Of a stretch of 64,000 bases of DNA, positions 2,301 to 44,308 are shown one piece after another (the stretch's first letter is position 1; each line of letters begins with the position of its first letter). The stretch is taken from the NCBI GenBank assembly GCA_965644295.1, contig CBFFRP010000068.1:1-64000 (forward strand). Direction: 5' to 3'. A model generated the notes under the pieces. That model worked only from the letters and a program-made list of their open reading frames with translations, made no database searches and was not told the origin of the DNA. The DNA comes from Paraphysomonas bandaiensis. Taxonomy: Eukaryota > Protista > Chrysophyceae. The translations under genes and the position numbers were made by a program.

Positions 2301-2490
2301 CCGCAGAGAAAATTACGGTACTCGGTCTACTCGTTAACGGATGTTACAGATCGTACAGGGACAGAATACCCCCGGTACCTTTTCGTACAGTCTACACTGC
2401 AGGTAGTCAAAAGGTAGCGGGGGTATTCTGTCCGTGTACGATCTGTAACATCCGTAAACGAGTAGACCGAGTACCGTATTTTTCTCTGCG
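2301..2490. mobile_element. Foldback MITE (~190 bp), TA-flanked
   Basis: ~80-bp near-perfect inverted arms CGCAGAGAAAATTACGGTACTCGG... / ...CCGAGTACCGTATTTTTCTCTGCG; TA at 2299-2300 and 2491-2492. Confidence 0.85.
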
Positions 2491-3596: not shown

Positions 3597-3900
3597 GCAT
3601 ACGTAAACTCTGCATAACAAAACACCATACGTACATACACAATACATACATACATACATACATACATACTGTACGTACATACATACATACATACTGTACC
3701 TACATACATACATACATACATACATACTGTACGTACATACATACATACATACATACATACATACTGTACGTACATACATACATACATACATACTGTACCT
3801 ACATACATACATACATACATACATACGTACATACATACATACACACATACATACAAGAGCAGTACGTACGTACTGCTGTATATGAATGTATAAGTACATA
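3597..3900. repeat. Compound (TACA)n microsatellite with interspersed TACTG/TACG variants
   Basis: Direct reading. Confidence 0.95.
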
Positions 3901-10179: not shown

Positions 10180-10239
10180 TTGATTATCTATATGATGATA
10201 CAGACTTATAGTTTGTTAATTATGATACATAGAGATATT

Positions 10240-10289
10240 CATACATACATACATACATACATACATACATACATACATACATACATACA
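10240..10289. repeat. (TACA)n microsatellite upstream of the ABCG gene
   Basis: Direct reading. Confidence 0.9.
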
Positions 10290-11573
10290 GTGAGAGTGAA
10301 GTCAAAGTACGTAATTGTTATATAGGGGAATGTTCTCAGCTTAATATTTCTGTGGCTCATAGGGAATTTCTAAGAATTCCTACTTTGTTTATCTATAAAT
10401 CTGGACATTTTAATTCCCTAAAGTCCCGAAATCCCTAAAAAATCCCTCATGTGGACAATACAGACGAAAAATGCAATGAAATTACATATTTTCTAGAGCA
10501 CTGTACACATGTAGAGTGAATGGGACATACAATAGTGGTGCCATTTTATATGCGTGGAAACAACTTTTGCTTTAGGGCAACTATTTTACAGAAATGAAAT
10601 CTGATATATTGTATAGTACCTGAATTCATCGTAAAGGTCAGAAAATCAACGGATAGTACTGACCATCTCGATAGGGATGTATTTATTTCAAACAGATGCT
10701 GCCGACAGTGATGGCGACGAACGTAGCACCCGAAGTGATAGTAACTGAGAATCTGCGGCTGAGGGTTGGTCGTCTGTGAATTGGTCAGTGCCTCTGAGTC
10801 AATGTCTTTCCTTTTTTCATAGGGACTAAACGCCAGAGAGGTTGTAGAAAGTCGTCCATTCTAATAGCTCTCAATTAGTAGTAGAGGTTTCTTGAACAAC
10901 AGATTGTTTCTAGTTGTGATATATGGTTATTACTGACTATGATAAGGTACTTGTATCGTGTAATCAATACTTTTAATAACCAAGGACTGAGGGTAATCGC
11001 AGGACTATTGCTTTGTGAGCCGTGTAAGTAAATAACTTGTGGTATTCTTTCCACTATAGGCCAATACTCACTACAACGCAAACGACGACAGCTCATGTAA
11101 AATATAATCATGCAAACTCTTTATTGATTAATATCAAATACTGATAGGTTATTCCGCTGATTTCTGTAACAACGTAGCTATGACCACAGCAGAATAACTA
11201 CGATACACTCACGTATCGCTTCAACACATTTATGCTCTATTAAGAAGTGAAATTAAAGTAAGTGGGACAAAGTGTACAGAACGTAGAAAACATACAGTTT
11301 CTAGACTTTAGTACACTTGGCTGAGTCCGAAATTATGCAAGGTCTGTACATTTAGTCTAACAATACAGTTGTAAGTAAGAAGATTTCTGTTTTATATAAC
11401 ACAAGAATAGCAAACGGCTTGTGTGAAGTAGAATTGTTCAAGTGAGATAGCTCAAGAATACAACAGATATTATATTAAACTATGGGATATATTTCTCAAC
11501 CTAGTCAATTTATTGACAGGTCCTCTAATAGATCCCTTGAGCTACTAAAAACACCTTCTCACAACGAATAGCA

Positions 11574-15225: not shown

Positions 15226-15483
15226 TATTAGGAGTCATTGAATCACGTATATCTCTTAACGCGTGAATACAACACACATATACAATGAAATACCAAATAG
15301 ACTGAATAATTACCAAACTATACATGATACGCGACTGTACAAGATACGCACATGTGTGTGGTGCTAACGCTCTGCTCAAACGTGTCTTGCTATTATACTA
15401 TTAGGCCTTATCGTTCAATCTTTATCTCTAATAATATCAAGTATATTCTTACTAAATATTAAGACTAACTTTAAATCTTATTT
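15226..15483 (+). repeat. 5' LTR
   Basis: Direct repeat of 20598-20855. Confidence 0.97.
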
Positions 15484-15501
15484 TGGTAGCGGATGGTAGT
15501 T
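15484..15501 (+). promoter_or_regulatory. Primer binding site, probably tRNA-iMet
   Basis: TGGTAGCGGATGGTAGTT directly after the LTR; TGG-T-AGC is the complement of CCA, discriminator A and the A1:U72 acceptor end typical of initiator tRNAs. Confidence 0.7.
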
Positions 15502-15560
15502 CTAAGACTAACAGTTACGATAACTCCGACTCCGACTCATCGGACAAGAGGAAGGATTCC

Positions 15561-18500
15561 ATGCCACCCTTCGACGCCAAGAACTTCTCAAAATGGCAGA
15601 AGAAAAGTAGAGCCTGGTTCTTTCGTAAGCCTAAGATAGTATACATCCTAAGAAACGATGCGCCAGAGGAGCCTATACGTCAAGAGGAAGAAACAGAAGA
15701 GGACTACCTATACAGGAAAAACGCCTACGACGAAAATATGCAGTATTTCGAGGAGGGCAACAATTACCTATGGTCACTTCTATCCAGCGCGGTGATTGGC
15801 CAAAACGAGGAAGCAGAGGGTATTATCGAAACAGTCCCTGAAGGAGATGGAAAAAGGGCATGGTCAGAGATCGAAAAGCATTTCAAAGACAAGACCTCAA
15901 ATGATACGATAACCGACCTCATTGGCCAACTGCAATCAATCAAAATCAAGCAAGCTCAAACAATCAATCAATTCCTGGACGAAGTCGAAAAATTGCGATT
16001 AAAGCTCGCTACACATGGCCACAAAGTCTCTGAACAAGACCTTATTTCAAGAATACGACAAGGGATGGTCTCAAATGAGAACCAGACCTATAAGGACCTG
16101 GCAATCAACCTCCAAATGAACCCAATTGATGATTATAAAACGCTGATAAGAAGATTGAGAGCATTCGAGCATTCCACTGTAGGCTCCCTACTATCACAAA
16201 ATACGGAAACCAAACGGGACAGCGCAAACTACAGCTCAACAGGCAAACAGCCGTTTAACCCCCGTCTACCGAAGAAGCAGAAGCACAACAACGGGCAGCG
16301 AAAACAGAAGAAATTCAACAAGCCCAGCAAAGTCACAAGAGCCTCGCGCGAAGTTAAGTGCTTCAGATGCAATGGATCCAACCACATTGCAGCAGAGTGC
16401 AAGCACTCGTGGGAACACATACAACAGATGCAGAAGTCCACAAACAAACGAAACGACGACAAAAGAGGGAAAGGGCATCACTCCAAGAACACATCATCAA
16501 AATACCCAAGAAACAGTCATCGGGATTCGAACTTAAGACTGGAAGACTATGACGATGAGGGGCCAAACGATGACAATGACTACAGTGCATTCTCCGGGAT
16601 GATCACAGACAACCACGTCCTACATACGGAACACGAGAAGCAGGAATTTGGCATTCTAGACTCTGGCTGCACAATATCAATTACAGCAGCACGAAGCTTA
16701 CTCTCCGAATTCACTTACGATCAAACCACAATTTACACCGCCAAATCAGGATCAGAAATGCAGGCATTGGGATACGGCAAGCTTGGACTGATTAGCAAGT
16801 GCAGGCTAGTTCCAGACGCGTCAAAGACTTTAATTTCCATCAGCCAGTTGACAACAGACGCCAACTGCAATATTATATTCGGACCAAACGAGGCACGCGT
16901 ATACCACGATGGAATTTTGTTAACCACAGCCAGGAAACAAAACGGTCTATACGAGATCAAATTATCCGATTTAGGTTACATCCAAGACCAGTGCAACTTG
17001 GCATCTACATCAAGCGGTTCCTCGATCTCCCTGGCACATCGAAGGTTGACCCACGCATCCATTGGCTTAATTCAAAAAGCATTAAAGTTGAATCTTGTGA
17101 AAGGAATCACTATTTCAAAATCCGACCTGAGCTCGCCACAGCTACCAGAAGGTCTTTGTGATGGCTGCGCACAAGGCAAGGCTCACAGGAGGAAACATAG
17201 GCGCGAGACAAGGCAAATGATACCGACAAAAACCAGAAGATCGCAGGAGCTTGGAGGACTTATAGCAGTTGATTTTACTGGACCATTTTCACCTCCAGCA
17301 ATAGTCACAGGAAACACCGTAGTCTTTGGAGCTACCGATGCAGCTTCAAGATACAGTTGGACATTCTATGGAAAACACAGAACCGAGGATTTTGTCATTG
17401 AGTGCATTCAGAAAATTGTGGATTATCTGCATTCGAAAGGCAAACGGCTAATACACTATCATGCTGATGGTGGCCGTGAGCTAGTATCACATCGTGTACT
17501 GAACTTGCTGAGAAAATTAGGATCAACCTGGACCTTCAACGCTCCATACACGCCAGAAGACAACCCCATACAAGAACGACCATGGCGCACGACCAAGGAA
17601 AGAACGCTTGCATCCATTTGCAACTCGGGCCTACCACCCAACTTCTGGGAACAGGCTATGTCCACCGTCACGCATATGAAAAATCGCCTGCCATGCGCCA
17701 CTGCAAAGGGATTCATATCACCGTATCAGTTCATCCACGACGAGGCCCCCGATTTATCTTACGCCAGGATTTGGGGCTGCAAATGCCATACATTCATAGA
17801 CAAGTCTCAGAGAAGAAACGATTGGTCTCCACATAGCCATATTGGGTACTTCATGGGATACCGAGAAGATGGACCAGGGTACGTCATATATGTACCTTCA
17901 CTCAAGGACTTCGTAATCTCAAGTCACGTCTTTTTCAATGAGTGCATCCCCGACGTCAAGGAAAACTACTACGCTGAAATCGAATCATCACTGAGAGAAG
18001 AAAATTCAGAGAATCGAACAACCGAGAGCTTCCAATACCTCGTTGGAATGACCCACACAGATCCACAGGATGGCCTCCAATACATCACGACAAGAATCAC
18101 AGTCATCAAAGGCCACGTGGCTGCTTACAGAGGATTGGCCCCACGAGAAAATGAAGGGCGAGTCATCGAGTTAAATGACCCAATACACGCTGCGGACATC
18201 GAAAGATACACCGCCGAGCACTTCAGTTATCAGAACGCGGTATCACCCCCGCAAGAGGAACCAGGATGCCCCGTGGAAGGAACAGCTCCAGGGAGGAGCA
18301 GTTCAACCGACAGCCGTCATGACGCCACACGGGGCGGGAGTCACAGCCATTTGAGAGGACCCTACTCAAATGAAAAGGAGGCAAGGCCTCGCCGCACAGC
18401 AGAAGCTCAGCGGAATACAGTGCCGAAGGAGGCACGGGGTGACAACAAGCGTAATCACCCTGCTCGTAAGGTCAAACGAGCTATCAAGACTGTGAATTCC

Positions 18501-20432
18501 CAGGGTGACAGGAGCCGGCAAAGCCCGGATGGCACAATTACGGGTGTAAGGACACCCCACCGACACAAGGTGAGCCGTTGCGTAAAGAAAAGTCTCCACA
18601 GCAAGAGGCAGACCAGGAAAAGGGTAATCATGAATGTACACAAATTCGGTGATAATATATACCACTGTGATGTTGATAAAAGATATTTGTACAACCACAA
18701 AACACCTGATAAACATGATAGTTACAGAACATTATACATGAATGATGTTGACATCATTATGCATGCAAATGACACATGTAGCAATGATGTACCTAACACA
18801 CCTAACAATGTTGGCGAGGCACTATCAGGCAGGTGCAAGGAACAATGGCTGAAAGCCATCAACAAAGAAATCAAGTCTCTAGAGAGCAAAGGCTGTTGGA
18901 GGATAACGACACCACCAGCAAATTCCAACATTATAAGGGGAAAATTCGTGTTTAGGGTAAAGGTCAAGCGAGATGAGGTTACCTTCAAGGCGAGGTTAGT
19001 GGCTCAAGGTTTCTCCCAGGTCGAGGGTAAAGACTACAACGAAACCTACAGCCCAGTCGCAAAGGCCACATCAATGAGAACAGTCATAGCACTAGCAACT
19101 ATACTTGGGTTGGAGCTTCACCAGGTAGATTTCTCTACTGCTTACATCAATGCAGACCTCCAAGAGGAAATTTACATGTATCCACCCGCTGGTCTCAATG
19201 TTCCAAACGGTAAAGTCCTCAGACTTCTAAAGAGTATATACGGACTCAAACAGTCCGGGTTAAATTGGTATAAATGTTGTACTAATTATCTGTTAGACTG
19301 TGGTTTTACCAGATTAGTGTCCGACCCGTGCATATTCACGAAATCAATCAATGGTCGACCCATAATTCTGGCAGTTTACGTCGATGACATCATTATCGCC
19401 GGTAAAAGTAGGACTGACATCATCCAAATCAAGAATTCGTTAGCTGAAAAATTCGACATTCATGATCTCGGCCTCCTAGATTACTACCTCGGCATATTCG
19501 TCAAACAGGATATACAGAATCGAACTACGACACTAAATCAATCTCAATACATACGGAACCTACTCCACAGATTCAACATGGAAGATTGCAAGCCACGTAG
19601 TCACCCCATGACAACAAATTTTCATATAGACATTCTCGAAAAGAAACAACTATCTCAAGAAAATCAAGAATTTGTCCAAAATTTTCCTTACAAGGAGCTC
19701 ATAGGTTCACTTATGTATATTGCTGTGTGCACTAGACCTGATATTGCATATGCTGTAAACACCCTTGCTCGTTTCAGTACTAATCCAAATCTAACTACAT
19801 GCAAAGCCGCATTAAACATACTTAGGTACCTCAAAGGCACTATCGATCAAGGTCTACAGTACTCCGGGAAGTCTGTTACTTTAACTGGATTCGCTGACAG
19901 TGATTGGGCACGCTGTAACTTAACTCGCAGGTCGACCACAGCGTTTTGCTTCTTTATTGGAAATTGTCTCATTTCCTGGCAATCACGACTCCAGACCACT
20001 GTAGCTCTATCCTCTACAGAAGCGGAGTACATGGCACTATCAACAGCATGTCAAGAAGCTATTTGGCTACGGTCACTACTCTCGGAATTGGGCTTCCACA
20101 TGCCATACTCAACAACCATATGGTGTGACAACAAAGGTGCAATTCAACTATGCCTAAACCCCGTACACCACCGACGAACAAAACATATTGCCATCAGATA
20201 TCACTTCATAAGAGAACAAGTCGCATCGCACTCTATTATTGTTGATTACATGCCTACAAACGAGATGCTGGCCGACATTCTAACTAAACCCCTCACATCA
20301 AACACGTTTCACAGATTGCGGGATTCACTAATGGGGGGGGGAGGTATCAACATACCTGCTAGTAATAAAAGAACAAAAGTATCTATCCCACCGGCAGAGA
20401 ACTCAACCAAGAGACCACGATGGATGACTTAG
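15561..20432 (+). CDS. Copia Gag-Pol polyprotein (Gag, CCHC, PR, IN, RT, RNase H)
   Basis: CFRCNGSNHIAAEC; ILDSGCT; HRRLTH...CDGC; integrase D(FTG)-D(GG)-E(RPW); KARLVAQG; YGLKQS; YVDD; ADSDWA, EAEY, DNK, ADILTK; first in-frame ATG at 15561. Confidence 0.96.
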   Translation: MPPFDAKNFSKWQKKSRAWFFRKPKIVYILRNDAPEEPIRQEEETEEDYLYRKNAYDENMQYFEEGNNYLWSLLSSAVIGQNEEAEGIIETVPEGDGKRAWSEIEKHFKDKTSNDTITDLIGQLQSIKIKQAQTINQFLDEVEKLRLKLATHGHKVSEQDLISRIRQGMVSNENQTYKDLAINLQMNPIDDYKTLIRRLRAFEHSTVGSLLSQNTETKRDSANYSSTGKQPFNPRLPKKQKHNNGQRKQKKFNKPSKVTRASREVKCFRCNGSNHIAAECKHSWEHIQQMQKSTNKRNDDKRGKGHHSKNTSSKYPRNSHRDSNLRLEDYDDEGPNDDNDYSAFSGMITDNHVLHTEHEKQEFGILDSGCTISITAARSLLSEFTYDQTTIYTAKSGSEMQALGYGKLGLISKCRLVPDASKTLISISQLTTDANCNIIFGPNEARVYHDGILLTTARKQNGLYEIKLSDLGYIQDQCNLASTSSGSSISLAHRRLTHASIGLIQKALKLNLVKGITISKSDLSSPQLPEGLCDGCAQGKAHRRKHRRETRQMIPTKTRRSQELGGLIAVDFTGPFSPPAIVTGNTVVFGATDAASRYSWTFYGKHRTEDFVIECIQKIVDYLHSKGKRLIHYHADGGRELVSHRVLNLLRKLGSTWTFNAPYTPEDNPIQERPWRTTKERTLASICNSGLPPNFWEQAMSTVTHMKNRLPCATAKGFISPYQFIHDEAPDLSYARIWGCKCHTFIDKSQRRNDWSPHSHIGYFMGYREDGPGYVIYVPSLKDFVISSHVFFNECIPDVKENYYAEIESSLREENSENRTTESFQYLVGMTHTDPQDGLQYITTRITVIKGHVAAYRGLAPRENEGRVIELNDPIHAADIERYTAEHFSYQNAVSPPQEEPGCPVEGTAPGRSSSTDSRHDATRGGSHSHLRGPYSNEKEARPRRTAEAQRNTVPKEARGDNKRNHPARKVKRAIKTVNSQGDRSRQSPDGTITGVRTPHRHKVSRCVKKSLHSKRQTRKRVIMNVHKFGDNIYHCDVDKRYLYNHKTPDKHDSYRTLYMNDVDIIMHANDTCSNDVPNTPNNVGEALSGRCKEQWLKAINKEIKSLESKGCWRITTPPANSNIIRGKFVFRVKVKRDEVTFKARLVAQGFSQVEGKDYNETYSPVAKATSMRTVIALATILGLELHQVDFSTAYINADLQEEIYMYPPAGLNVPNGKVLRLLKSIYGLKQSGLNWYKCCTNYLLDCGFTRLVSDPCIFTKSINGRPIILAVYVDDIIIAGKSRTDIIQIKNSLAEKFDIHDLGLLDYYLGIFVKQDIQNRTTTLNQSQYIRNLLHRFNMEDCKPRSHPMTTNFHIDILEKKQLSQENQEFVQNFPYKELIGSLMYIAVCTRPDIAYAVNTLARFSTNPNLTTCKAALNILRYLKGTIDQGLQYSGKSVTLTGFADSDWARCNLTRRSTTAFCFFIGNCLISWQSRLQTTVALSSTEAEYMALSTACQEAIWLRSLLSELGFHMPYSTTIWCDNKGAIQLCLNPVHHRRTKHIAIRYHFIREQVASHSIIVDYMPTNEMLADILTKPLTSNTFHRLRDSLMGGGGINIPASNKRTKVSIPPAENSTKRPRWMT

Positions 20433-20597
20433 AGATCTACGGAGTTTCCCACGAGTACGCTGTATGTTGACATCAGTGTAATCCACAATCTGTGATTGCA
20501 CTCGTGGGTTTTACCCTCAGTAGAACTATCTCCAAATATATACACCTATATCCATATATCAATGTATACGCCATATGATTATTTCATTGAGGGGGAG

Positions 20598-20855
20598 TAT
20601 TAGGAGTCATTGAATCACGTATATCTCTTAACGCGTGAATACAACACACATATACAATGAAATACCAAATAGACTGAATAATTACCAAACTATACATGAT
20701 ACGCGACTGTACAAGATACGCACATGTGTGTGGTGCTAACGCTCTGCTCAAACGTGTCTTGCTATTATACTATTAGGCCTTATCGTTCAATCTTTATCTC
20801 TAATAATATCAAGTATATTCTTACTAAATATTAAGACTAACTTTAAATCTTATTT
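20598..20855 (+). repeat. 3' LTR
   Basis: Direct repeat of 15226-15483, preceded by PPT. Confidence 0.97.
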
Positions 20856-23671: not shown

Positions 23672-25247
23672 ATGAAATCGATTCGGCTGTCATGGAGTGG
23701 TATATTTATTGCATGTCTGAGCTTCCTGTGCATTGTTGAGTGTTTCAGGACGCCCCCGAATAGAGACCCTCCTGTTTTAAAATTTGATATATATAACATC
23801 AAGACCCCTCAATTGATTGGGATAATTGCAGGATGCATTGTCTTTACAGCCACAGTCTTCAGTGTGATCGTTCTGCTATATAAGAGTGGAACGTTTTCAA
23901 GGTTCGCTAAGGAAGTTGCATCTGGTCAGGAGTTGCGGTATATATCCAAAGCGGAAGCAGCAACTCCTCAAATCGCCGACCTTCCAGAATTATATGACCA
24001 CTTGCTAGATGCCAGGGCAAAGCTTTCTACGAAGCCATCGATTTTAACATTGAAAGGAAAGCATATGATTCTACGCGAACTTAAAGCTTCAGATATGAAG
24101 GATGTATACGAGGCTAGTAGTGGACAGGCGCTATTCCATGAGAGCGCATACGATCCAGAAAGAATATGGGGCTGGCTCCCAAATTTCAATGGAATGAAAC
24201 CCTATTCGTCGTTTGAAGAATTTCAGCGCGCAATGGTGGAGTCACCGAATTCTCGTCACTGTGTAATGGTTGATCCCGCTCTTGATAGAGTAGTTGGTAT
24301 GATCAGCTTGATTCACAACAACACCACTGATCTCACCATTCAGCTCGGTAAGAACATCGCTACAAAAATGTATTGTATTAATTAATACGTTAATTATAGA
24401 AAACATATGGGTTACTCCGGCATATCAGGGCAAGAAGTACTCACATGAAGCTGTGCTTATGGTATTGGAGCTATTGGTGGCCTCCGGCTATCGCCGTGTC
24501 ACTGCAGAAGTAGACTCACGACATCTCATTGGTAGAAAATTTTTAGAAAGGTACATTATCTTGTTGTATACATCTACATATTGTATTGTATGCTTTGGGC
24601 GAAGTACCATGGATCATCTGAAGTGACCGCTCCTGGGGTATCCCCCAGGATCGCAGGACGCTGTTGATTTTGCTCTATACTAGTAGCCCATATAGTATTG
24701 CACCCTCGATGTCGCCTTGAGCCGCCGTATACGCATCTTGTGTATCACGGCTGGCTCGGTGCGTCGTGAGGTGATGATAGAGTATTTTTCTTGGTGGGGG
24801 TTAGAGTGTAGGACCGCTCTTCGATGTCTGATAACGACTCTATAACCCACTCGCTCGGACATATATTTCACAAACTGTATTGGAATTGTTGTTCTCATAC
24901 ACTTTTGCAGATGTGGATTTCGAATGGAAGCCGTCCTCAGAAAGCACCGTGTCGTCAATAACCGGAACAGGGACACTGCTCTATATGTCATGCTAAACTC
25001 GGAGTGGGATCATGCCGCAATAAAACTCAAAAAGTACCTCGGAATTGATCCCAAGCCGAAAGGGGTTAAGCTTGCAGACATTGAGTCGGCTACGTCTGCT
25101 GTTCCAAAAAATAGGTCCACCCAGTCTAATGGCATCGTCGACTTAAATGCACAACAGAACCTTTCTTCCTTTTTGCAGAGTAAGCCTGTTGGTGGCAGTG
25201 ATAGCAGTAAGGGAGCGAAAAAGAAGAAAAAGAGCAAGAAAAAATGA
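23672..25247 (+). CDS. GNAT acetyltransferase (RimJ/RimL-like) with N-terminal signal and TM segments (exons 23672-24347, 24400-24550, 24911-25247)
   Basis: IQL|ENIWVTPAYQGKKYSHEAV...GYRRVTAEVD...FLER|CGFRMEAVLRKHRVVNNRNRDTALYVMLNSEW; two hydrophobic segments N-terminally; Lys-rich tail. Confidence 0.88.
24596..24864 (+). ncRNA. Candidate intron-encoded H/ACA-type structured RNA (three hairpins)
   Basis: GC-rich block in a 360-nt intron; hairpins 24596-24690, 24701-24773, ~24789-24858; ANANNA boxes at 24692 and 24779; ACA at 24859. Confidence 0.6.
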
Positions 25248-29565: not shown

Positions 29566-29802
29566 AGTGTATCGAGATAATATGCTTCTGGTGGGCACAG
29601 TCAGTGTATGAGAAGATGAGCACCCGGAGTATATACTACACACTACGACTACAATGTATATTGTTGTATCAGTTGGGGTGCATTTCTAGAGTTGAGACTG
29701 TATTCTTGTATTCTTGTATGCATACACGTCTGTAGTCTCAAATCTAGAAAAATAGGGACCCACACGCTCCATCTTCTCCGCAACACTCAGCAAGAAGGAC
29801 AT

Positions 29803-32800
29803 CCAGTCGCCGTCAAAAGTCCGAACAAGTCAAAAGTCCGAACAACCGTTTTTTGATCAAAAGTCCAAAAATGTCGTTCGAAACTCTCATATTTCTCTCA
29901 CTTCAGTGACATTGAAATCCAATTAACACAACACTTGAACTGACCTGACACTGGAGACTTATCATTCTATGGCAATCATGGACCACTGGACACGAATATG
30001 CAACCAGATTTTCATTTCATACACTGCTTCTCTCAATATCACAAGGTTTCTTATATCGTTCCAATTCATCGAGTACCCCTCACATCCGGCACCATTTCTC
30101 AAAATCCCTACATTGAATTTTCAACATGACGATCTTAAAAGGTTTGTATACAGATGGACTCTCACATATATGAGTGCTGTGCAATTCCTACGACTTGTTT
30201 TTGAATAATGTCTGATTTGTGTTCTTTCAGTGACTCGTCTATGCGACTACAAGAATCTTCGCAAAAAGAACCGACAAGACGCCATAGACAAGCTCCGGGC
30301 AGCTAAATTTGCAAAAGCACAGTCGAAAGACAGCTATGGATCAGATGTTGACCTCAATAATGACTTTAGTTGGTCAAGGTTGCGCAGTTAAGCAGTGTGA
30401 ACCAGTACTGCTGAGAGCAAAATATTTCTCGAAGAGTGCTCCTCAGGTAGCTGTTTTTGTCTATCTATGCGTTTATACATATTTATGAGGAACAATCTAT
30501 CTTATAGGACGTAGACAAATGGTAATTGTAGCTATTCGGGTCTAGAATTGGAAGAATGAAGCGCGTGTGTTCGTTCCGGCTGGCCAGGCGTATGAGGAAG
30601 CTGTTACTGTGATCTTGTCCACTTCTGTGCCCTACGGGGATTACATAGAGACACGAAGGAGTGTAAAGAGTGTCAACATTCAAGGGAGCAAGTTTCTTAA
30701 GCAGTTCATGATAACCTCTTGGATAATATCACTCTACCTAAAGACCAAATTAGACAATGCAAACAAGAACTAGATAGTACTATCTACATATTCGTTGCTG
30801 AATTCTTATTAACAACTGGAGTGGTAATCCGATTAATTCGTAAGTTTTATTTCTTCATGCTCCACTCTCTTGAATTTGTAGACATAGCTAGCTAGGTTGT
30901 GGTATCATGATAGGTGATAACAGACAGTGGCTACATAAAATCGTTTGATTGTACTACCAGCTATGCGACACATATCATGCAGCAGCACAAAATTAACTTT
31001 ATTATAGTAATATACAATAACGATTGCTAATATATTTAGTGACGATAGCTATTAGTGTACCACTACAAGAAGAAAATAATCATAAATCAGCGGTATTAAA
31101 ACAACGTAAATAAGCGTATTAAAACAACATAATTAAGCTAACTATACTTTGTATCTGTGGCACACTTCACGGAACAGGGCCCAACAAGATCTTACGTCTG
31201 CGAGGGGCAAGTGTGGCACAGCTATCTTACAATTGTCTTTACTTTAGTTCTATCTTCTTGGCAGCCTCTGCTTTCTTCCTCTCCCTTTCAACAGCATTTT
31301 CTGTCTTTTCTCGTTCTCTCTTCTCGGCAGCCTCTTCTTTTTTACGCTTTCTCGCCTTGATAGCTTCCGCCTTTTTGTGCTCAGCCTCTGCCTTTTTGTG
31401 CTCAGCCTCGGCCTTCTTGCGCTCCTTCTCAGCAGCTTTCTCAGCTTTGGCTCGGGTAGAAGCACGTAGCATATCATTGCGTCTTTCGACCTCAACGCTA
31501 TGATTGAGCCATACAGCTCTCTGGCGGATAATACTAAGCTCGTTCAAATTCAACATAGGTGTAGCTAACTTAACGTCATGCTTAGTAAGGATTGCGGAGA
31601 TGTCATCATCACGTGTTAGACCGCGAAGGCTGGCAAGCTGTATGAGTTCTGGTATAACATTATTAAGAAGGCGGGACGCTTCTTCTTCAGGAAGTTGGCA
31701 GATATGAGGGTTTTTCCGAAGCAGGACTTCAGCATCAAACGGCTCGAAAGCGGCCGAGGCGAAGCCAGATATAATGTTGTCACCAGTGTAACACTTGGTG
31801 ATCATTGTAGGCAAGCGATGAAAGAAATTTCTATACGTTGTTATCGAGTCGCTATCCATCTTGATGTCCTTCATATACTGGACAACGTATGGAAGGAAGA
31901 TGGGAGTTGCGCCCTTCGTCTTGGGGTCGTAAAATTCCGCCTTCTTACAATACTCATTGCACAAAGCAAAACATCGCGTGAGATCACAAGGCTGTGCACA
32001 CATGGTGTATGCGGCTGCTAACTTGACAAACTCGATGGAGAAAGAACCCCATTTTTCCATTAGTACGTCGATAAGAGCACGTATGAGTCCATATTCGCCA
32101 TCAAGTGACCAAAGAATAGGGACCTGCTTCTCTATACTCGAGTAATTCACATCGAGTTTCTTCAATGTTCTCTCTTTTCGGTCTCTGTTTTTAACAACTA
32201 CAGGGAGAATGTGTTCATCAATAATAAACATTCCGAAAGTTGCCTCTGCACTGAGTGGTTTCTTTTGTGTAGCATGTGCCTCTTCCAGCTTATCACATTC
32301 ACGGTCGTCATGCTGCTCCCGAAGGGCTCGCATTTGATCCCGTGTGTCCAAGTCAGGACCGGAGCAATAATCATCCCCATTTCCGCTTGGGTTTAGTCCT
32401 TTATCATCGTTACTTTTACATTTTGAACCTTTATCATCTTGAGCAATTTCTTCCTTCTCATCACTACCCTCAACTTCCTTCAAACCCGGCATAGCTTCAT
32501 CACTCTCCTCCATATCAACGTCCTCCCAGACTGTTTCAGCGTCATCTGTAGTTTTGCTCTCAGTGCACTGTTTGATCCTGTGTGCAGGACGAAAAATAAT
32601 GCTCTGTACCCATCCATTCATGTTGAACTTGAAACACTTCAACTCCTTGCATTTTCGTTCCCGGATGACAACAATATGGCTGAGTAGAGCAGGCTCTGCA
32701 CTCATAGTAGCCGTGCACTTAACGGATCGTATCTTCTTCTTGTTGGTAATGGCGACAGAAAGACGGTTAAGTTTCATCAGTTTTTTCATATTCTATGTCA

Positions 32801-34033
32801 AAATTTTGTAAATAAAGTAACCACGAATCGCCAACTATACATACCTGTGGACAACGTGCCCGCCTCTGCTTACTATATCCTAGCATGATGTTGTGAGTAT
32901 CCGAATTGGTCTTGTTCCACGGATGAAATCGGTTGCCTTGAGGATTTTCTGGTGATACCCCTAAGATGGCACCTACTATGGCTACGCTGGATAAGGGATT
33001 GAATGCATCATTGATGGCCTCCTGCCTTCGCGCATTGACTGTGGACGGAGCATCCACACTTTCAGGTGACACCTTTTTCAAATACCTGCCTATGGTGGAA
33101 TTTGAGGGTGCCTTACGATTCTTAAGGAAGTTCCCCCCTTGCTTGTTGACAGTCCCTGCACTGGTCAGTGCTTTAACAAAATCCCCATCGGATGCAGAAG
33201 TGAATGAGTTCCCAGTTGCAGTGGCCTCATGGCTCATGTCGGACAACATTGCCACACCGTCTTCGTCCGTCCAGGTCGGGCGCCCAAGATAGCTACGATT
33301 GGGATCTAGCCCTCTTTCTCGTTTATCTTTGGCCCTACAAAGCAGATATTCCATCAGAAATACGTATGTTATGACAATAAAGAGTTACCTGAAGAACACT
33401 CCACGAGTGATGTTGTGATTGCGACAAAACTCACTAACATTACTAGGTTTATCCTTTTCATATTCATCGAGAATAGCATTGAGGTCAACATCAGATCCAT
33501 AGCTGTCTTTCGACTGTGCTTTTGCAAATTTAGCTGCCCGGAGCTTGTCTATGGCGTCTTGTCGGTTCTTTTTGCGAAGATTCTTGTAGTCGCATAGACG
33601 AGTCACTGAAAGAACACAAATCAGACATTATTCAAAAACAAGTCGTAGGAATTGCACAGCACTCATATATGTGAGAGTCCATCTGTATACAAACCTTTTA
33701 AGATCGTCATGTTGAAAATTCAATGTAGGGATTTTGAGAAATGGTGCCGGATGTGAGGGGTACTCGATGAATTGGAACGATATAAGAAACCTTGTGATAT
33801 TGAGAGAAGCAGTGTATGAAATGAAAATCTGGTTGCATATTCGTGTCCAGTGGTCCATGATTGCCATAGAATGATAAGTCTCCAGTGTCAGGTCAGTTCA
33901 AGTGTTGTGTTAATTGGATTTCAATGTCACTGAAGTGAGAGAAATATGAGAGTTTCGAACGACATTTTTGGACTTTTGATCAAAAAACGGTTGTTCGGAC
34001 TTTTGACTTGTTCGGACTTTTGACGGCGACTGG
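29803..34033 (-). mobile_element. Apparently autonomous DNA transposon, pogo-like, with 556-bp TIRs
   Basis: TIRs 29803-30358 and 33478-34033 (one mismatch seen, at 30343); flanked by ACAT (29799-29802, 34034-34037); three CAAAAGTCC(GAACAA) repeats near each end; internal transposase gene. Confidence 0.95.
31239..33710 (-). CDS. Divergent pogo/DDE_1-like transposase, DD38D (exons 33710-33695, 33605-33389, 33334-32845, 32792-31239)
   Basis: Phase-compatible GT-AG introns; HTH-like NVSEFCRNHNITRGVFFR followed by GRP; NSD (first D), SVKCTATMSAEPALLSHIVVI, WSLDG (second D), KLAAAYTMCAQPCD (third D), NIISGFASAAFEPFD, charged coiled-coil tail. Confidence 0.8.
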
Positions 34034-35460
34034 ACATGCATATCTAGCTGTGGATATCACCGACAGCCTCGTATCGCTCGTATCGCTCGTATCTATCTAA
34101 CATTGTGAACATGAGTAACATGATGAACATATCATAATACTATGAAATCAACTGCAGTGTGTATGAGAAAAGTTGATAACAGGGAAAATTGGCCTCTGAG
34201 TTTATGTAATGCTTGACAGTATTAGCTAAAGGACTAAACCTATTGAACAATGAGCAGAAACCACGTTGGCGAATCAGTCTATTTCCTACAGAAAATGGAA
34301 GAGTAATTGAAAGTGTTCAGATGAAGGAGTTGAACTACGCGTTATTGTTGATTTATTGGGTCAGGAAAATTACGACAATTTTCAGCAAAAGTAAAAGCCT
34401 CTAAGAAATACATTGTCCTATCTGATATCTGGAAGGTTTACCTAGTAGGTCTATGTCTATGTCTATGTTCATTTATTCTAGCGTTCTAGACAACCTTGGA
34501 TCGACTGCCGATGGGTTGCTACTTCTGCTTTATGGGTTAGTCACAATTACTCTATCACATAAGTGTGGCATCGATAATAACTCCATGAAGTTAAATTGAA
34601 TTCTGATTAATTCTAAACATTGTACTAGTTCTACCGACCTACACATATAGGTGAGTATAGGGTCACACTACAAATGTGAAACTCATGAACCGTGCACATG
34701 ATCAATGCATCAATAGATGTAGAAGCTGAATTAAACATCAAGGGACATAGAAATAATTACAATGATACTGGTTCAACTGTCATGAAGTATGTCTGAACTA
34801 TAATTATATATGTGTGTCATTCTGTCAACACTATGCGTTTTGGAAATGGTTCATACTAGGGACTATGACTGTAAATTGTAAATGGCCTTACGGTGTTCAC
34901 TTGGCTATAGCAATAATGAGTGAATCTGATAATATGATGTAATGTTAAGTTTAGAGCAAGCTGCTCTAATGAGCTACTCAGAGAGTTAGTTCATAACATA
35001 CTGTATAGTTAATATAATACTGCTGCGTTTAATTTCTTTGTGAATAAACAATAAACTTTGTTGGCAGTTGTTGGCAACTAGGCATTTTTCGGTGGAAAAC
35101 TTATGAGTGTATCTGAACCAGATACAAAGTAAAGATACAATTGTAGGCGGGAGGTGATTACACAGGATGGTTACGGGAATGGCATGCGGTTTGCAGAATA
35201 TAAGACTTATCCTTAACACACTTTGCTCGATATACTCTCCAACAGAATGTACTATACCAACTCAATAGTTTGACGGCGAGTTTCGAGATGCGCACGGTTA
35301 CATATATATAGTGATTTCTACACTCATTAAGAGACAGCAAGCAGAGAGTACCAGGAAGAAAATAAATCTTATTATGTATGCAAGAGGTTTACCAAATCTC
35401 CAAGCCGCACAGTATTCAACCTGCTCATTACTACACTATATACTCATACTTCAAAGTTTC

Positions 35461-36142: not shown

Positions 36143-36292
36143 TATATTATTTTTTTGTAGTAAGGATAGATAAGTCTAGTGTATATAGATGAGGTTATGG
36201 TCAACTTAATGCTGCCAGAGAAATGACTATAAGGAGCATGCGCTTGTGTCACTGTTTTATTTTGCACAAACACGGACCAAATACACCACCCC

Positions 36293-36610
36293 ATGTATGT
36301 ATGTATGTACGTATGTATGTATGTATGTATGTATGTATGTATGTATGTATGTATGTATGTATGTATGTATGTATGTATGTATGTATGTATGTATGTATGT
36401 ATGTATGTATGTATGTATGTATGTATGTATGTATGTATGTATGTATGTATGTATGTATGTATGGATGTATGTATGTATGTATGTATGTATGTATGTATGT
36501 ATGTATGTATGTATGTATGTATGTATGTATGTATGTATGTATGTATGTATGTATGTATGTATGTATGTATGTATGTATGTATGTATGTATGTATGTTTGT
36601 ATGTATGTAC
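36293..36610. repeat. (ATGT)n microsatellite, ~80 units
   Basis: Direct reading; lies between divergent genes. Confidence 0.97.
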
Positions 36611-36689
36611 GTGCTTCTACAGGTATATATATTTAAAGTAAGTTATCACAATATCAGTGTATTCAATCTAACACTACACACATTCAAAT

Positions 36690-43589: not shown

Positions 43590-43802
43590 AGTATATTGTT
43601 GTTGAAGTATATTGAAGTGAGTTGAAGTATATTAAAGTGAGTTGAAGAATAAAAAAAAGGATGAAGATTATTATGTTGTAGAGATCATATGAGAATTGTG
43701 TATGAAGTGATATGATGAGAGGATTGGATGTGTCTTATAATAATATAAGATGGAATGAATGAGTTCTGTTTGAATATCTGATACGAAATATTTGCATACA
43801 AG

Positions 43803-43887
43803 ATACATACATGCATACATACATACATACATACATACATACATACATACATACATACATACATACATACATACATACATACATACA

Positions 43888-43921
<34 letters not shown>

Positions 43922-43960
43922 CATACGTACATACATACATACATACATACATACATACGT
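43803..43960. repeat. (TACA)n microsatellite
   Basis: Direct reading; lies between divergent genes. Confidence 0.97.
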
Positions 43961-44308
43961 ATATCGTATATTGTACATTCTATACCTTGAATACCTAGAT
44001 ATTCCAGAATTTCTATAAATATCGGATTTTGAGTCTAAGCAGACATATATTTCCTGATATTTTGTATCAGGCTGTCACTCTCATTCCACCACCAGGAACT
44101 TTAACAACTCCATACATGTACATACATACACCAATTGCCCCTCTCTCTTAACCACACTCTAATACCATACACTAATGGCTTAACTATCAACATAATCTTC
44201 ATTAGTTTCTATTAATTGAATAGATAGTAACTAGCAATACACATATATAACCAGATAGAAGGGCTCCCATATATATATATCCATATCCATATATATATAT
44301 ATATATAG

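What the first reader, a model, noticed from the sequence alone, without database searches (positions are those of the whole stretch)
24596..24864. Three-hairpin H/ACA-like RNA hidden in an unusually long intron of the GNAT gene
Seen: the intron (24551-24910) is 360 nt, versus roughly 50-130 nt for most introns here, and holds a GC-rich core. It folds as hairpin 1 (TGGGC...TCCTGGGG/CCCCAGGA...GCCCA), ATAGTA, hairpin 2 (CACC...TTGAGCC GCCGT ATACGCA/TGTGTAT ACGGC GGCTCGG...GGTG), AGAGTA, hairpin 3 (GGGTTA GAGT/ACTC TAACCC), ACATAT. G-U pairs favour the plus strand. A GTGATGA (24771) and CTGA (24828) are also present. Established: typical eukaryotic H/ACA RNAs have two hairpins with guide pockets. 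Inference: a long atypical sno/scaRNA or non-guide H/ACA-stabilised RNA; hairpins 2 and 3 lack obvious pockets and snR30/U17 m1/m2 motifs are absent.
Basis: partly seen in the sequence, partly recalled or inferred. Interest (0 to 1): 0.78.

Follow-up and report, generated by a model that had tools for sequence, protein, structure and literature searches.

The report
Intronic C/D snoRNA under competing hairpin
A long intron in an algal acetyltransferase gene carries the perfect box motifs of a likely methylation-guide small RNA (box C/D snoRNA), whose front end is predicted to be hidden inside a very stable upstream hairpin, so each excised intron would fold into either the snoRNA or a separate hairpin RNA; the three-hairpin H/ACA RNA first proposed is not supported.

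Summary
The 360-nt intron 24551-24910 is real: it is spliced in all 4 RNA runs that hold the mRNA. Hairpins 1 and 2 are real too; hairpin 2 is the most stable of 3196 80-nt windows. Hairpin 3 is no better than chance. Its sequence is better read as a box C/D snoRNA of about 70 nt: perfect C (24771) and D (24828) boxes and 6 of 7 terminal pairs in kink-turn register, matched by 76 of 50,000 shuffles. The lower stem of hairpin 2 pairs over the C box, so the two folds exclude each other. In 3 studies, RNA contigs from inside the intron stop at 24766-24771, and two begin at the intron's first base. That is a weak hint of a stable piece of about 220 nt, not a 270-nt RNA ending at 24864. No Rfam family, convincing target or ortholog was found, so covariation is untested. 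Best reading: an orphan intronic C/D snoRNA with a competing fold, like SNORD86/SNORD2 (0.45). Bolder reading: two overlapping, mutually exclusive snoRNAs, one H/ACA and one C/D (0.15). The scan's earlier notes held nothing similar.

The parts
23672..24347 (+). Host gene exon 1 (coding; hydrophobic N-terminal segments, no Pfam hit)
   Evidence: 46 homologs; the named ones include Chlorochromonas danica proteins
24348..24399 (+). Intron 1, 52 nt, GT..AG
   Evidence: joint in mRNA contigs of X8 and X16
24400..24550 (+). Exon 2, GNAT acetyltransferase motif
   Evidence: PF00583 22 bits (cut-off 20.7); PF13302 E 0.0012, below cut-off
24551..24910 (+). Intron 2, 360 nt, host of the RNA
   Evidence: 360-nt skip in X8, X16, X9, X11
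24551..24771 (+). Stretch covered by stand-alone RNA contigs (strand not shown by contigs; + inferred from the start at the intron's first base)
   Evidence: X8 24551-24768, X9 24551-24771, X16 24611-24766
24596..24690 (+). Hairpin 1: 5-bp base, internal loops, 8-bp GC-rich apex
   Evidence: z -2.45; apex 24621-24668 z -3.5, 8/1000; base pair probability 0.46-0.6
24692..24697 (+). ANANNA (H-box-like) hinge
   Evidence: sequence; motif common by chance
24712..24761 (+). Upper hairpin 2, compatible with either fold
   Evidence: -27.8 kcal/mol, z -4.9, 0/1000
24701..24773 (+). Full hairpin 2; its lower stem (24701-24711 with 24762-24773) pairs over the snoRNA's 5' stem strand and the first three bases of box C
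   Evidence: base pair probability about 0.9, rank 1 of 3196 windows; lower extension matched by 87/3000 shuffles
24763..24838 (+). Box C/D snoRNA unit with terminal stem; mature ends predicted near 24766 and 24835
   Evidence: 76/50,000 shuffles, only such unit on the + strand of 64 kb; Rfam C/D model snoZ157 20.7 bits, far below its cut-off of 55
24771..24777 (+). Box C, GTGATGA (perfect RUGAUGA)
24793..24805 (+). Candidate D' guide (24793-24801) and degenerate D' box TAGA (24802-24805)
   Evidence: 10-bp duplex, -20.8 kcal/mol, with an 18S variant in L017 and L036; run length reached by 56/300 shuffles
24828..24831 (+). Box D, CTGA (perfect)
24794..24864 (+).
24894..24898 (+). Candidate branch-point motif CTCAT (consensus recalled, untested)
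   Evidence: sequence
24911..25247 (+). Exon 3 coding part to the stop codon

Best explanation
The intron is spliced out and carries perfect C and D boxes with a terminal stem, which likely make a box C/D snoRNA of about 70 nt (about 24766-24835) that would be trimmed from the excised intron, while a stronger upstream hairpin is predicted to pair over its 5' end and C box. Inferred mechanism: hairpin 2 is transcribed before box D exists, so it would form first and hide box C. Molecules in which Snu13 and the other core proteins win, or in which the upstream strand is removed by 5'-3' trimming, would mature into a methylation-guide snoRNP. Molecules left in the hairpin fold would be chewed back from the 3' side to the base of hairpin 2 and persist as the piece of about 220 nt that RNA contigs cover. 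The target is not established. The best candidate is an 18S cytidine in the run GAGACCCCCGCC, beside the site that human SNORD28 methylates (about 25% likely). Shown: splicing, motifs, computed folds, contig extents. Inferred: the snoRNP, the order of folding, the decay piece and the target.
For: Perfect RUGAUGA and CUGA with 6 of 7 flanking pairs in kink-turn register occurred in 76/50,000 intron shuffles, and in 23/50,000 when the extra pair next to box D was also required. It is the only unit with 5 or more such pairs on the + strand of the window. The best Rfam match is a C/D model over exactly this stretch, E 0.15 and 0.031. In naked RNA hairpin 2's base pairs (which take the first three bases of box C) have probability about 0.9, the C/D stem about 0, and forcing the C/D stem costs about 17 kcal/mol. 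Upper hairpin 2 ends one base short of the C/D stem. RNA contigs in 3 of the 4 mRNA-holding runs laid (3 studies) lie wholly inside the intron; two start at its first base and all stop at 24766-24771, where DNA contigs of X6 and X10 go on (a weak hint). cDNAs made inside a lariat are known to end at the intron's 5' end (PMC9908952, passages). An orphan intronic C/D snoRNA with two alternative folds is known (SNORD86; PMC11028025, passages).
Against: No guide target beats chance: D guide 12/60 shuffles as good and 275/300; D' guide 56/300. C' and D' are degenerate (best combined distance 5). No Rfam family reaches its cut-off. The lower stem of hairpin 2 is only modestly non-random (87/3000). 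X9's contig reaches 24771, inside box C, so the covered piece is not a clean cut-off leader of the snoRNA. X8's contig has 5 unaligned letters at that end, and X11 holds the mRNA but gave no intron contig. The mature snoRNA itself was not seen. None of the 14 distant orthologous loci that cover this exon junction has an intron there, so conservation is untested.
Confidence: 0.45

Rival explanations
1. Hairpins 1 and 2 form a two-hairpin H/ACA-type RNA of about 187 nt (24596 to about 24782; H box ATAGTA, tail ATA plus 3 nt). It overlaps box C, so it is either an alternative product to the C/D snoRNA or the only product.
For: Hairpin-ANANNA-hairpin-tail layout. Internal-loop closures can be drawn 14 nt before the H box and 15 nt before ATA. 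All intron contigs fall inside or 5' of this span and stop 11-16 nt short of 24782; X16's contig is short by 15-16 nt at both ends. Long 5' hairpins occur in AluACA RNAs and telomerase RNA (PMC5207380, passages).
Against: No ACA follows hairpin 2 (AUA as a tolerated variant is recalled). Opening both pockets costs 13 kcal/mol, and many closures can be drawn at any spacing. No conserved pseudouridine target of 8-9 bp or more recurs across the rRNAs tested. No Rfam H/ACA match at E 10 or better. Two contigs extend to the intron's first base, 45 nt upstream of hairpin 1.
Confidence: 0.2
2. One long RNA runs from hairpin 1 to box D (about 24596-24835): a 5'-extended C/D RNA or an H/ACA-C/D hybrid. 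The contigs stop early only because reverse transcriptase stalls at the base of hairpin 2.
For: Upper hairpin 2 and the C/D stem can coexist (constrained fold). The contig ends coincide with the base of a -43 kcal/mol hairpin. Contigs cannot show RNA ends.
Against: The only composite layout seen in the passages read is the U85 type; that its H/ACA domain lies between the C and D boxes is recalled. Here the hairpins lie outside the boxes, with no ACA before box C. No CAB box in the apical loops and no GU-repeat wobble stem of the kind described in PMC4041459 (passages).
Confidence: 0.12
3. One reading: a three-hairpin H/ACA RNA of about 270 nt ending at 24864.
For: The unconstrained fold gives three arms; ANANNA lies after hairpins 1 and 2 and ACA near the end.
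Against: Hairpin 3 is at chance level; the boxes are common motifs; the snR30 m2 motif is not 7 nt before ACA (sequence against PMC2664660, passages); the model leaves the perfect C/D unit unexplained; contigs stop about 93 nt earlier in three studies (weak hint).
Confidence: 0.07
4. Hairpin 2 is a microRNA-type foldback in the intron, next to or instead of the snoRNA.
For: Long, nearly continuous duplex, the strongest in the window. Brown-algal microRNAs that lie in protein-coding genes are mostly in introns (PMC4513859, passages).
Against: At 73 nt it is much shorter than the 170-nt average there. The contigs hold hairpin 2 intact. It does not explain the C/D boxes. No small-RNA data were available.
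Confidence: 0.08
5. A MITE or other mobile relic that created or enlarged the intron, with no RNA function.
For: The intron position is absent from 14 of 14 distant orthologous loci that cover it.
Against: No second copy in the window. DNA run X6, read whole at 80% likeness, gives one contig and flat depth over the intron. No long terminal inverted repeats. The C/D unit is non-random.
Confidence: 0.05

Closest known systems
Intron-encoded box C/D snoRNAs
   Same: Perfect RUGAUGA and CUGA boxes, terminal stem in kink-turn register, about 70 nt, in the 3' half of a spliced intron (definition in PMC11028025 and PMC10234308, passages).
   Different: No significant guide target, degenerate C'/D', and a 5' end buried in a stronger upstream hairpin.
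SNORD86 in NOP56 and SNORD2 in EIF4A2 (snoRNAs with alternative folds in cis)
   Same: An intronic C/D snoRNA that can pair with its own intron and adopt a non-snoRNP fold (PMC11028025 passages; PMC10324135 abstract).
   Different: No sequence relation. The host is a GNAT-domain gene, not a snoRNP or translation factor. The pairing partner lies upstream, not over the branch point. No alternative splice joint was seen in any contig.
snoZ157/R69/R10 (Rfam RF00333, clan CL00063)
   Same: Best Rfam match, over 24762-24839, sharing boxes and a U-rich stretch after box C.
   Different: 20.7 bits against a cut-off of 55; the guide before box D differs from the family consensus at 3 of 11 positions. 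Not a member.
U14 (domain B) and SNORD28
   Same: The D guide pairs 9 of 10 with the 18S site ACAUC(C/U)AAGG (that this is U14's site is recalled). The D' guide pairs at the 18S site that SNORD28 methylates (Cm1391: PMC13507652 table; placing that number on this sequence is recalled).
   Different: The U14-like duplex has a mismatch next to the target base and no domain A lies between the boxes. The SNORD28-like duplex predicts a base one position away and is not significant.
snR30/U17
   Different: m1 and m2 motifs and the 7-nt m2-ACA spacing are not met (and sequence).

Membership tests
Box C/D snoRNA | Box C RUGAUGA near the 5' end and box D CUGA near the 3' end | tested here: met
   GTGATGA 24771, CTGA 24828
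Box C/D snoRNA | Terminal stem in kink-turn register | tested here: met
   6 of 7 pairs; 76/50,000 shuffles; not favoured in naked RNA
Box C/D snoRNA | Internal C'/D' boxes | tested here: inconclusive
   best combined Hamming distance 5, several ties
Box C/D snoRNA | Guide of 10-21 nt complementary to rRNA or snRNA before D or D' | tested here: inconclusive
   no significant hit in rRNAs of other eukaryotes; the organism's own rRNA and all snRNAs were unavailable
Box C/D snoRNA | Accumulates as a discrete RNA bound by fibrillarin, Nop56/58 and Snu13 | not testable with these tools
   only assembled contigs were served, no raw reads
Box H/ACA sno/scaRNA | Hairpin-hinge(ANANNA)-hairpin architecture | tested here: met
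   hairpins 1 and 2 significant, ATAGTA between them; the motif itself is common
Box H/ACA sno/scaRNA | ACA box after the last hairpin, 3 nt from the end | tested here: inconclusive
   no ACA after hairpin 2 (ATA or AGA only); ACA at 24859 follows a chance-level hairpin; true 3' end unknown
Box H/ACA sno/scaRNA | Open pocket 14-15 nt from the box with a bipartite target | tested here: not met
   no target conserved across the rRNAs tested; pockets cost 13 kcal/mol to open; snRNA targets untested
snR30/U17 | m1 and m2 motifs pairing with 18S rm1/rm2, 7 nt upstream of ACA | tested here: not met
   the bases ending 7 nt before ACA read CCCACT; definition from PMC2664660 passages; no Rfam hit
U85-type composite scaRNA | H/ACA domain with CAB boxes enclosed by C and D boxes (layout partly recalled) | tested here: not met
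   hairpins lie upstream of box C; apical loops UAUC and UCU lack ugAG
snoZ157/SNORD74 clan | Rfam gathering score and guide sequence | tested here: not met
   20.7 of 55 bits; guide differs
MITE | Multiple copies with terminal inverted repeats | tested here: not met
   single in the window; one contig and flat depth in X6; whole genome not held

The most novel reading that the evidence does not exclude
One intron encodes two overlapping small RNAs of different classes: a two-hairpin H/ACA-type RNA (24596 to about 24782) whose last stem and tail are the 5' stem and C box of a box C/D snoRNA (about 24766-24835). Each excised intron becomes one RNP or the other, decided by which core proteins bind first, which couples the output of the two snoRNP classes at a single locus.
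Probability: 0.15. Interest if true: 0.72.

Novelty: new member of a known kind. Interest (0 to 1): 0.38.

Why it matters
Four literature searches (listings and abstract starts only) showed no description of snoRNAs in chrysophytes and no overlapping, mutually exclusive H/ACA and C/D pair. At the least this is an unannotated orphan C/D snoRNA with no Rfam family, in a lineage where these searches found none described. If the competing fold is used, it extends the SNORD86/SNORD2 kind of in-cis switch to stramenopiles. If both RNAs are made, it is a snoRNA gene layout that those searches did not show, and one northern blot can test it.

Tried and rejected
No genome is held for the window, so no genome-wide copy count or own rRNA/snRNA. 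Rfam: 0 hits at gathering score in 64 kb; at E up to 10 only snoZ157 and unrelated weak matches. Orthologs: 16 metagenome loci, 29-50% identical; 14 cover the exon 2/3 junction and none has an intron there, and blastn of the intron gave only 11-16-nt chance matches; no C/D unit in their introns, only two hits inside coding sequence of L015 and L016. Viral contigs: nothing for the host protein, the C/D pattern, an LSU motif or a U2 motif. Runs X21 and X22 (other organisms) gave nothing at 80% likeness, which is no proof of absence. No RNA contig covers 24772-24908 in X8, X9, X11 or X16; a hole proves nothing, and a 70-nt RNA would be lost in such libraries. Contig depths (135 and 146 in the intron, 858 and 1252 for the mRNA in X8 and X9) are not used as expression levels. 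Target scans used rRNAs of other eukaryotes found as contaminants (49 loci; 3 delineated by Rfam): perfect or one-wobble duplexes of 10-12 bp were scattered over the intron, by my rough estimate at about chance frequency (no shuffle control); anchored guide scans were not significant; the '0/300 with as many G-C pairs' figure is biased by shuffling a G run and is not used; pocket scans gave only lineage-limited hits. Six internal AG sites, if used as 3' splice sites, give a stop within 11 codons, and none is seen used. An RNase III cut in hairpin 2 was considered and set aside: no AGNN loop, and the contigs hold the hairpin intact. Resemblances to U1, U3, U6, U11, SRP, MRP and telomerase motifs were noticed from recall and dropped, since Rfam gave none of them at E up to 10. 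The hairpin 1 apex pair list was out of register and is not used. Earlier findings: nothing by sequence or by words, one unrelated note from the same genome. Supplementary files of the cited papers were not read; snoRNA predictions for Ectocarpus or other stramenopiles there could hold a relative.

Full report
Host and intron. The gene at 23672-25247 (+) has three coding exons. Exon 2 matches the GNAT family PF00583 above its cut-off. Exon 1 finds 46 relatives among 171 candidates at up to 54% identity, and the named ones include two proteins of the chrysophyte Chlorochromonas danica, so the organism is likely a chrysophyte-like stramenopile (inference). Of 23 runs listed, 20 hold the stretch or part of it; 8 runs were laid. 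mRNA contigs in X8, X16, X9 and X11 skip exactly 360 nt, GT..AG, which confirms intron 24551-24910; intron 1 is 52 nt. No whole genome is held.

Structure. The plus strand of 24590-24870 folds at -106.9 kcal/mol (z -4.1, 0/200); the minus strand at -86 (z -2.3, 5/200). Hairpin 2 is the most stable of 3196 80-nt windows on the plus strand. Shuffling only the 3' strand of hairpin 3 does as well in 739/3000 trials. ANANNA and ACA start at 3.5% and 2.6% of window positions. So the H and ACA boxes and hairpin 3 are weak evidence, and hairpins 1 and 2 are strong.

The C/D unit. GTGATGA (24771) and CTGA (24828) are perfect boxes. Read in kink-turn register, 24769 back to 24763 pairs with 24832-24838 at 6 of 7 positions, and the last base of box C pairs with the base before box D. 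This occurred in 76 (with the extra pair, 23) of 50,000 dinucleotide shuffles of the intron. It is the only unit with 5 or more such pairs on the plus strand of the window; two weaker ones lie on the minus strand. Rfam has no match at gathering score. Its best weak match is the C/D family snoZ157 over 24762-24839, 20.7 bits against 55, which reflects the boxes rather than membership. The candidate branch point lies about 62 nt downstream of the predicted 3' end; PMC10234308 (passages) gives 40-50 nt as the classic optimum but finds most human snoRNAs farther away, so this is neutral.

Two folds exclude each other. The upper 50 nt of hairpin 2 (24712-24761; z -4.9) end just before the C/D stem and fit either fold. 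The lower stem pairs 24701-24711 with 24762-24773, which takes the snoRNA's 5' stem strand and the first three bases of box C. In naked RNA the base pairs of that stem have probability about 0.9, the C/D stem about 0, and forcing the C/D stem costs about 17 kcal/mol, with kink-turn and protein energies not modelled. The lower stem is better than 2913 of 3000 shuffles of its 5' strand: suggestive, not strong.

RNA evidence. Three of the four mRNA-holding RNA runs also give a stand-alone contig wholly inside the intron: X8 24551-24768 (plus 5 unaligned letters at that end), X9 24551-24771 (all 221 letters aligned) and X16 24611-24766. They come from three studies; X8 and X9 are only guessed to be RNA, but hold spliced contigs. 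X11 gave none. DNA contigs of X6 and X10 run on through 24771. Two contigs start at the intron's first base with no exon overlap, which fits excised-intron RNA; cDNAs from inside a lariat end there (PMC9908952, passages). The shared stop near the base of hairpin 2 is a weak hint, since contigs cannot show ends. It fits a 3'-trimmed piece stalled at hairpin 2, an H/ACA-type RNA ending near 24782, or a polymerase stall on a longer RNA. It fits an end at 24864 least well. Because X9 reaches into box C, the piece is not simply a leader cut from the snoRNA.

Targets. With no own rRNA, I used eukaryotic rDNA found in 49 contaminating contigs. The D guide has no significant target (12/60 and 275/300 shuffles as good); its nearest site is a 9-of-10 match to 18S ACAUC(C/U)AAGG with a mismatch beside the target base. 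With TAGA (24802) as D', the guide forms a 10-bp, -20.8 kcal/mol duplex with 18S GAGACCCCCGCC, a variant found in 2 of the 20 loci that cover the site (L017, L036). From recall, that variant is typical of stramenopiles and the site lies beside human Cm1391, which SNORD28 guides (PMC13507652, table passage). But 56/300 shuffles reach the same run length, so it is a lead only. No H/ACA pocket gives a target conserved across the rRNAs tested. snRNAs could not be obtained. The snR30/U17 test fails against the definition in PMC2664660 (passages).

Conservation and copy number. Sixteen distant orthologous loci were fetched. Fourteen cover the exon 2/3 junction and none has an intron there; none resembles the intron or carries a C/D unit in an intron. 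Covariation is therefore untested, and the intron may be recent. There is no second copy in the window, and X6 gives one contig with flat depth at 80% likeness, which argues against a MITE. In X16 the only listed change inside the element is one extra base in the apical loop of hairpin 1 (depth under 5, may be an error).

Mechanism and comparison. The best reading (0.45) is an orphan intronic C/D snoRNA whose 5' end is masked by a hairpin that would form first during transcription. Core-protein binding or 5' trimming would release it, and unreleased molecules would be trimmed back to hairpin 2 and linger. Exonucleolytic maturation of intronic snoRNAs after debranching is described in PMC10557570 (passages). 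It works like SNORD86 and SNORD2, which adopt non-snoRNP folds with their own introns (PMC11028025 passages; PMC10324135 abstract), but it is not related to them, and no effect on host splicing was seen.

Verdict. A real, structured, intron-derived RNA locus, most likely a new member of the box C/D class with an unusual upstream domain. The overlapping H/ACA plus C/D reading is not excluded (0.15); searches (listings and abstract starts) showed no such case and no chrysophyte snoRNA study. Interest 0.38.

Noticed in passing
window 2337-2455: Near-perfect inverted repeat (121-nt fold -80 kcal/mol, z -15.3) whose arms appear to extend further; no other copy in the window at E 0.01. Could be a MITE or a long microRNA-type foldback.
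   Followed up: partly
window 15226-20855: Two identical 258-nt direct repeats around a 1658-aa open frame that looks like an intact, recent Ty1/copia LTR retrotransposon (family name from recalled motifs, no family scan).
   Followed up: no
window 29802-34034: Perfect 557-nt terminal inverted repeats enclosing open frames of 517 and 205 aa on the minus strand: a DNA-transposon-like element.
   Followed up: no
window 23672-25247: The host protein joins hydrophobic N-terminal segments to a GNAT domain and a lysine-rich tail; its function is unknown. Several orthologs have an intron before the GYRR motif that this gene lacks, and lack intron 2.
   Followed up: partly
window 3617-3886, 10197-10328, 36209-36640, 43771-43990: Long (CATA)n/(TATG)n microsatellites.
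   Followed up: no
L017-L065: Many prokaryote reference genomes hold eukaryotic rDNA contigs: 49 listed, about 390 stretches estimated.
   Followed up: no
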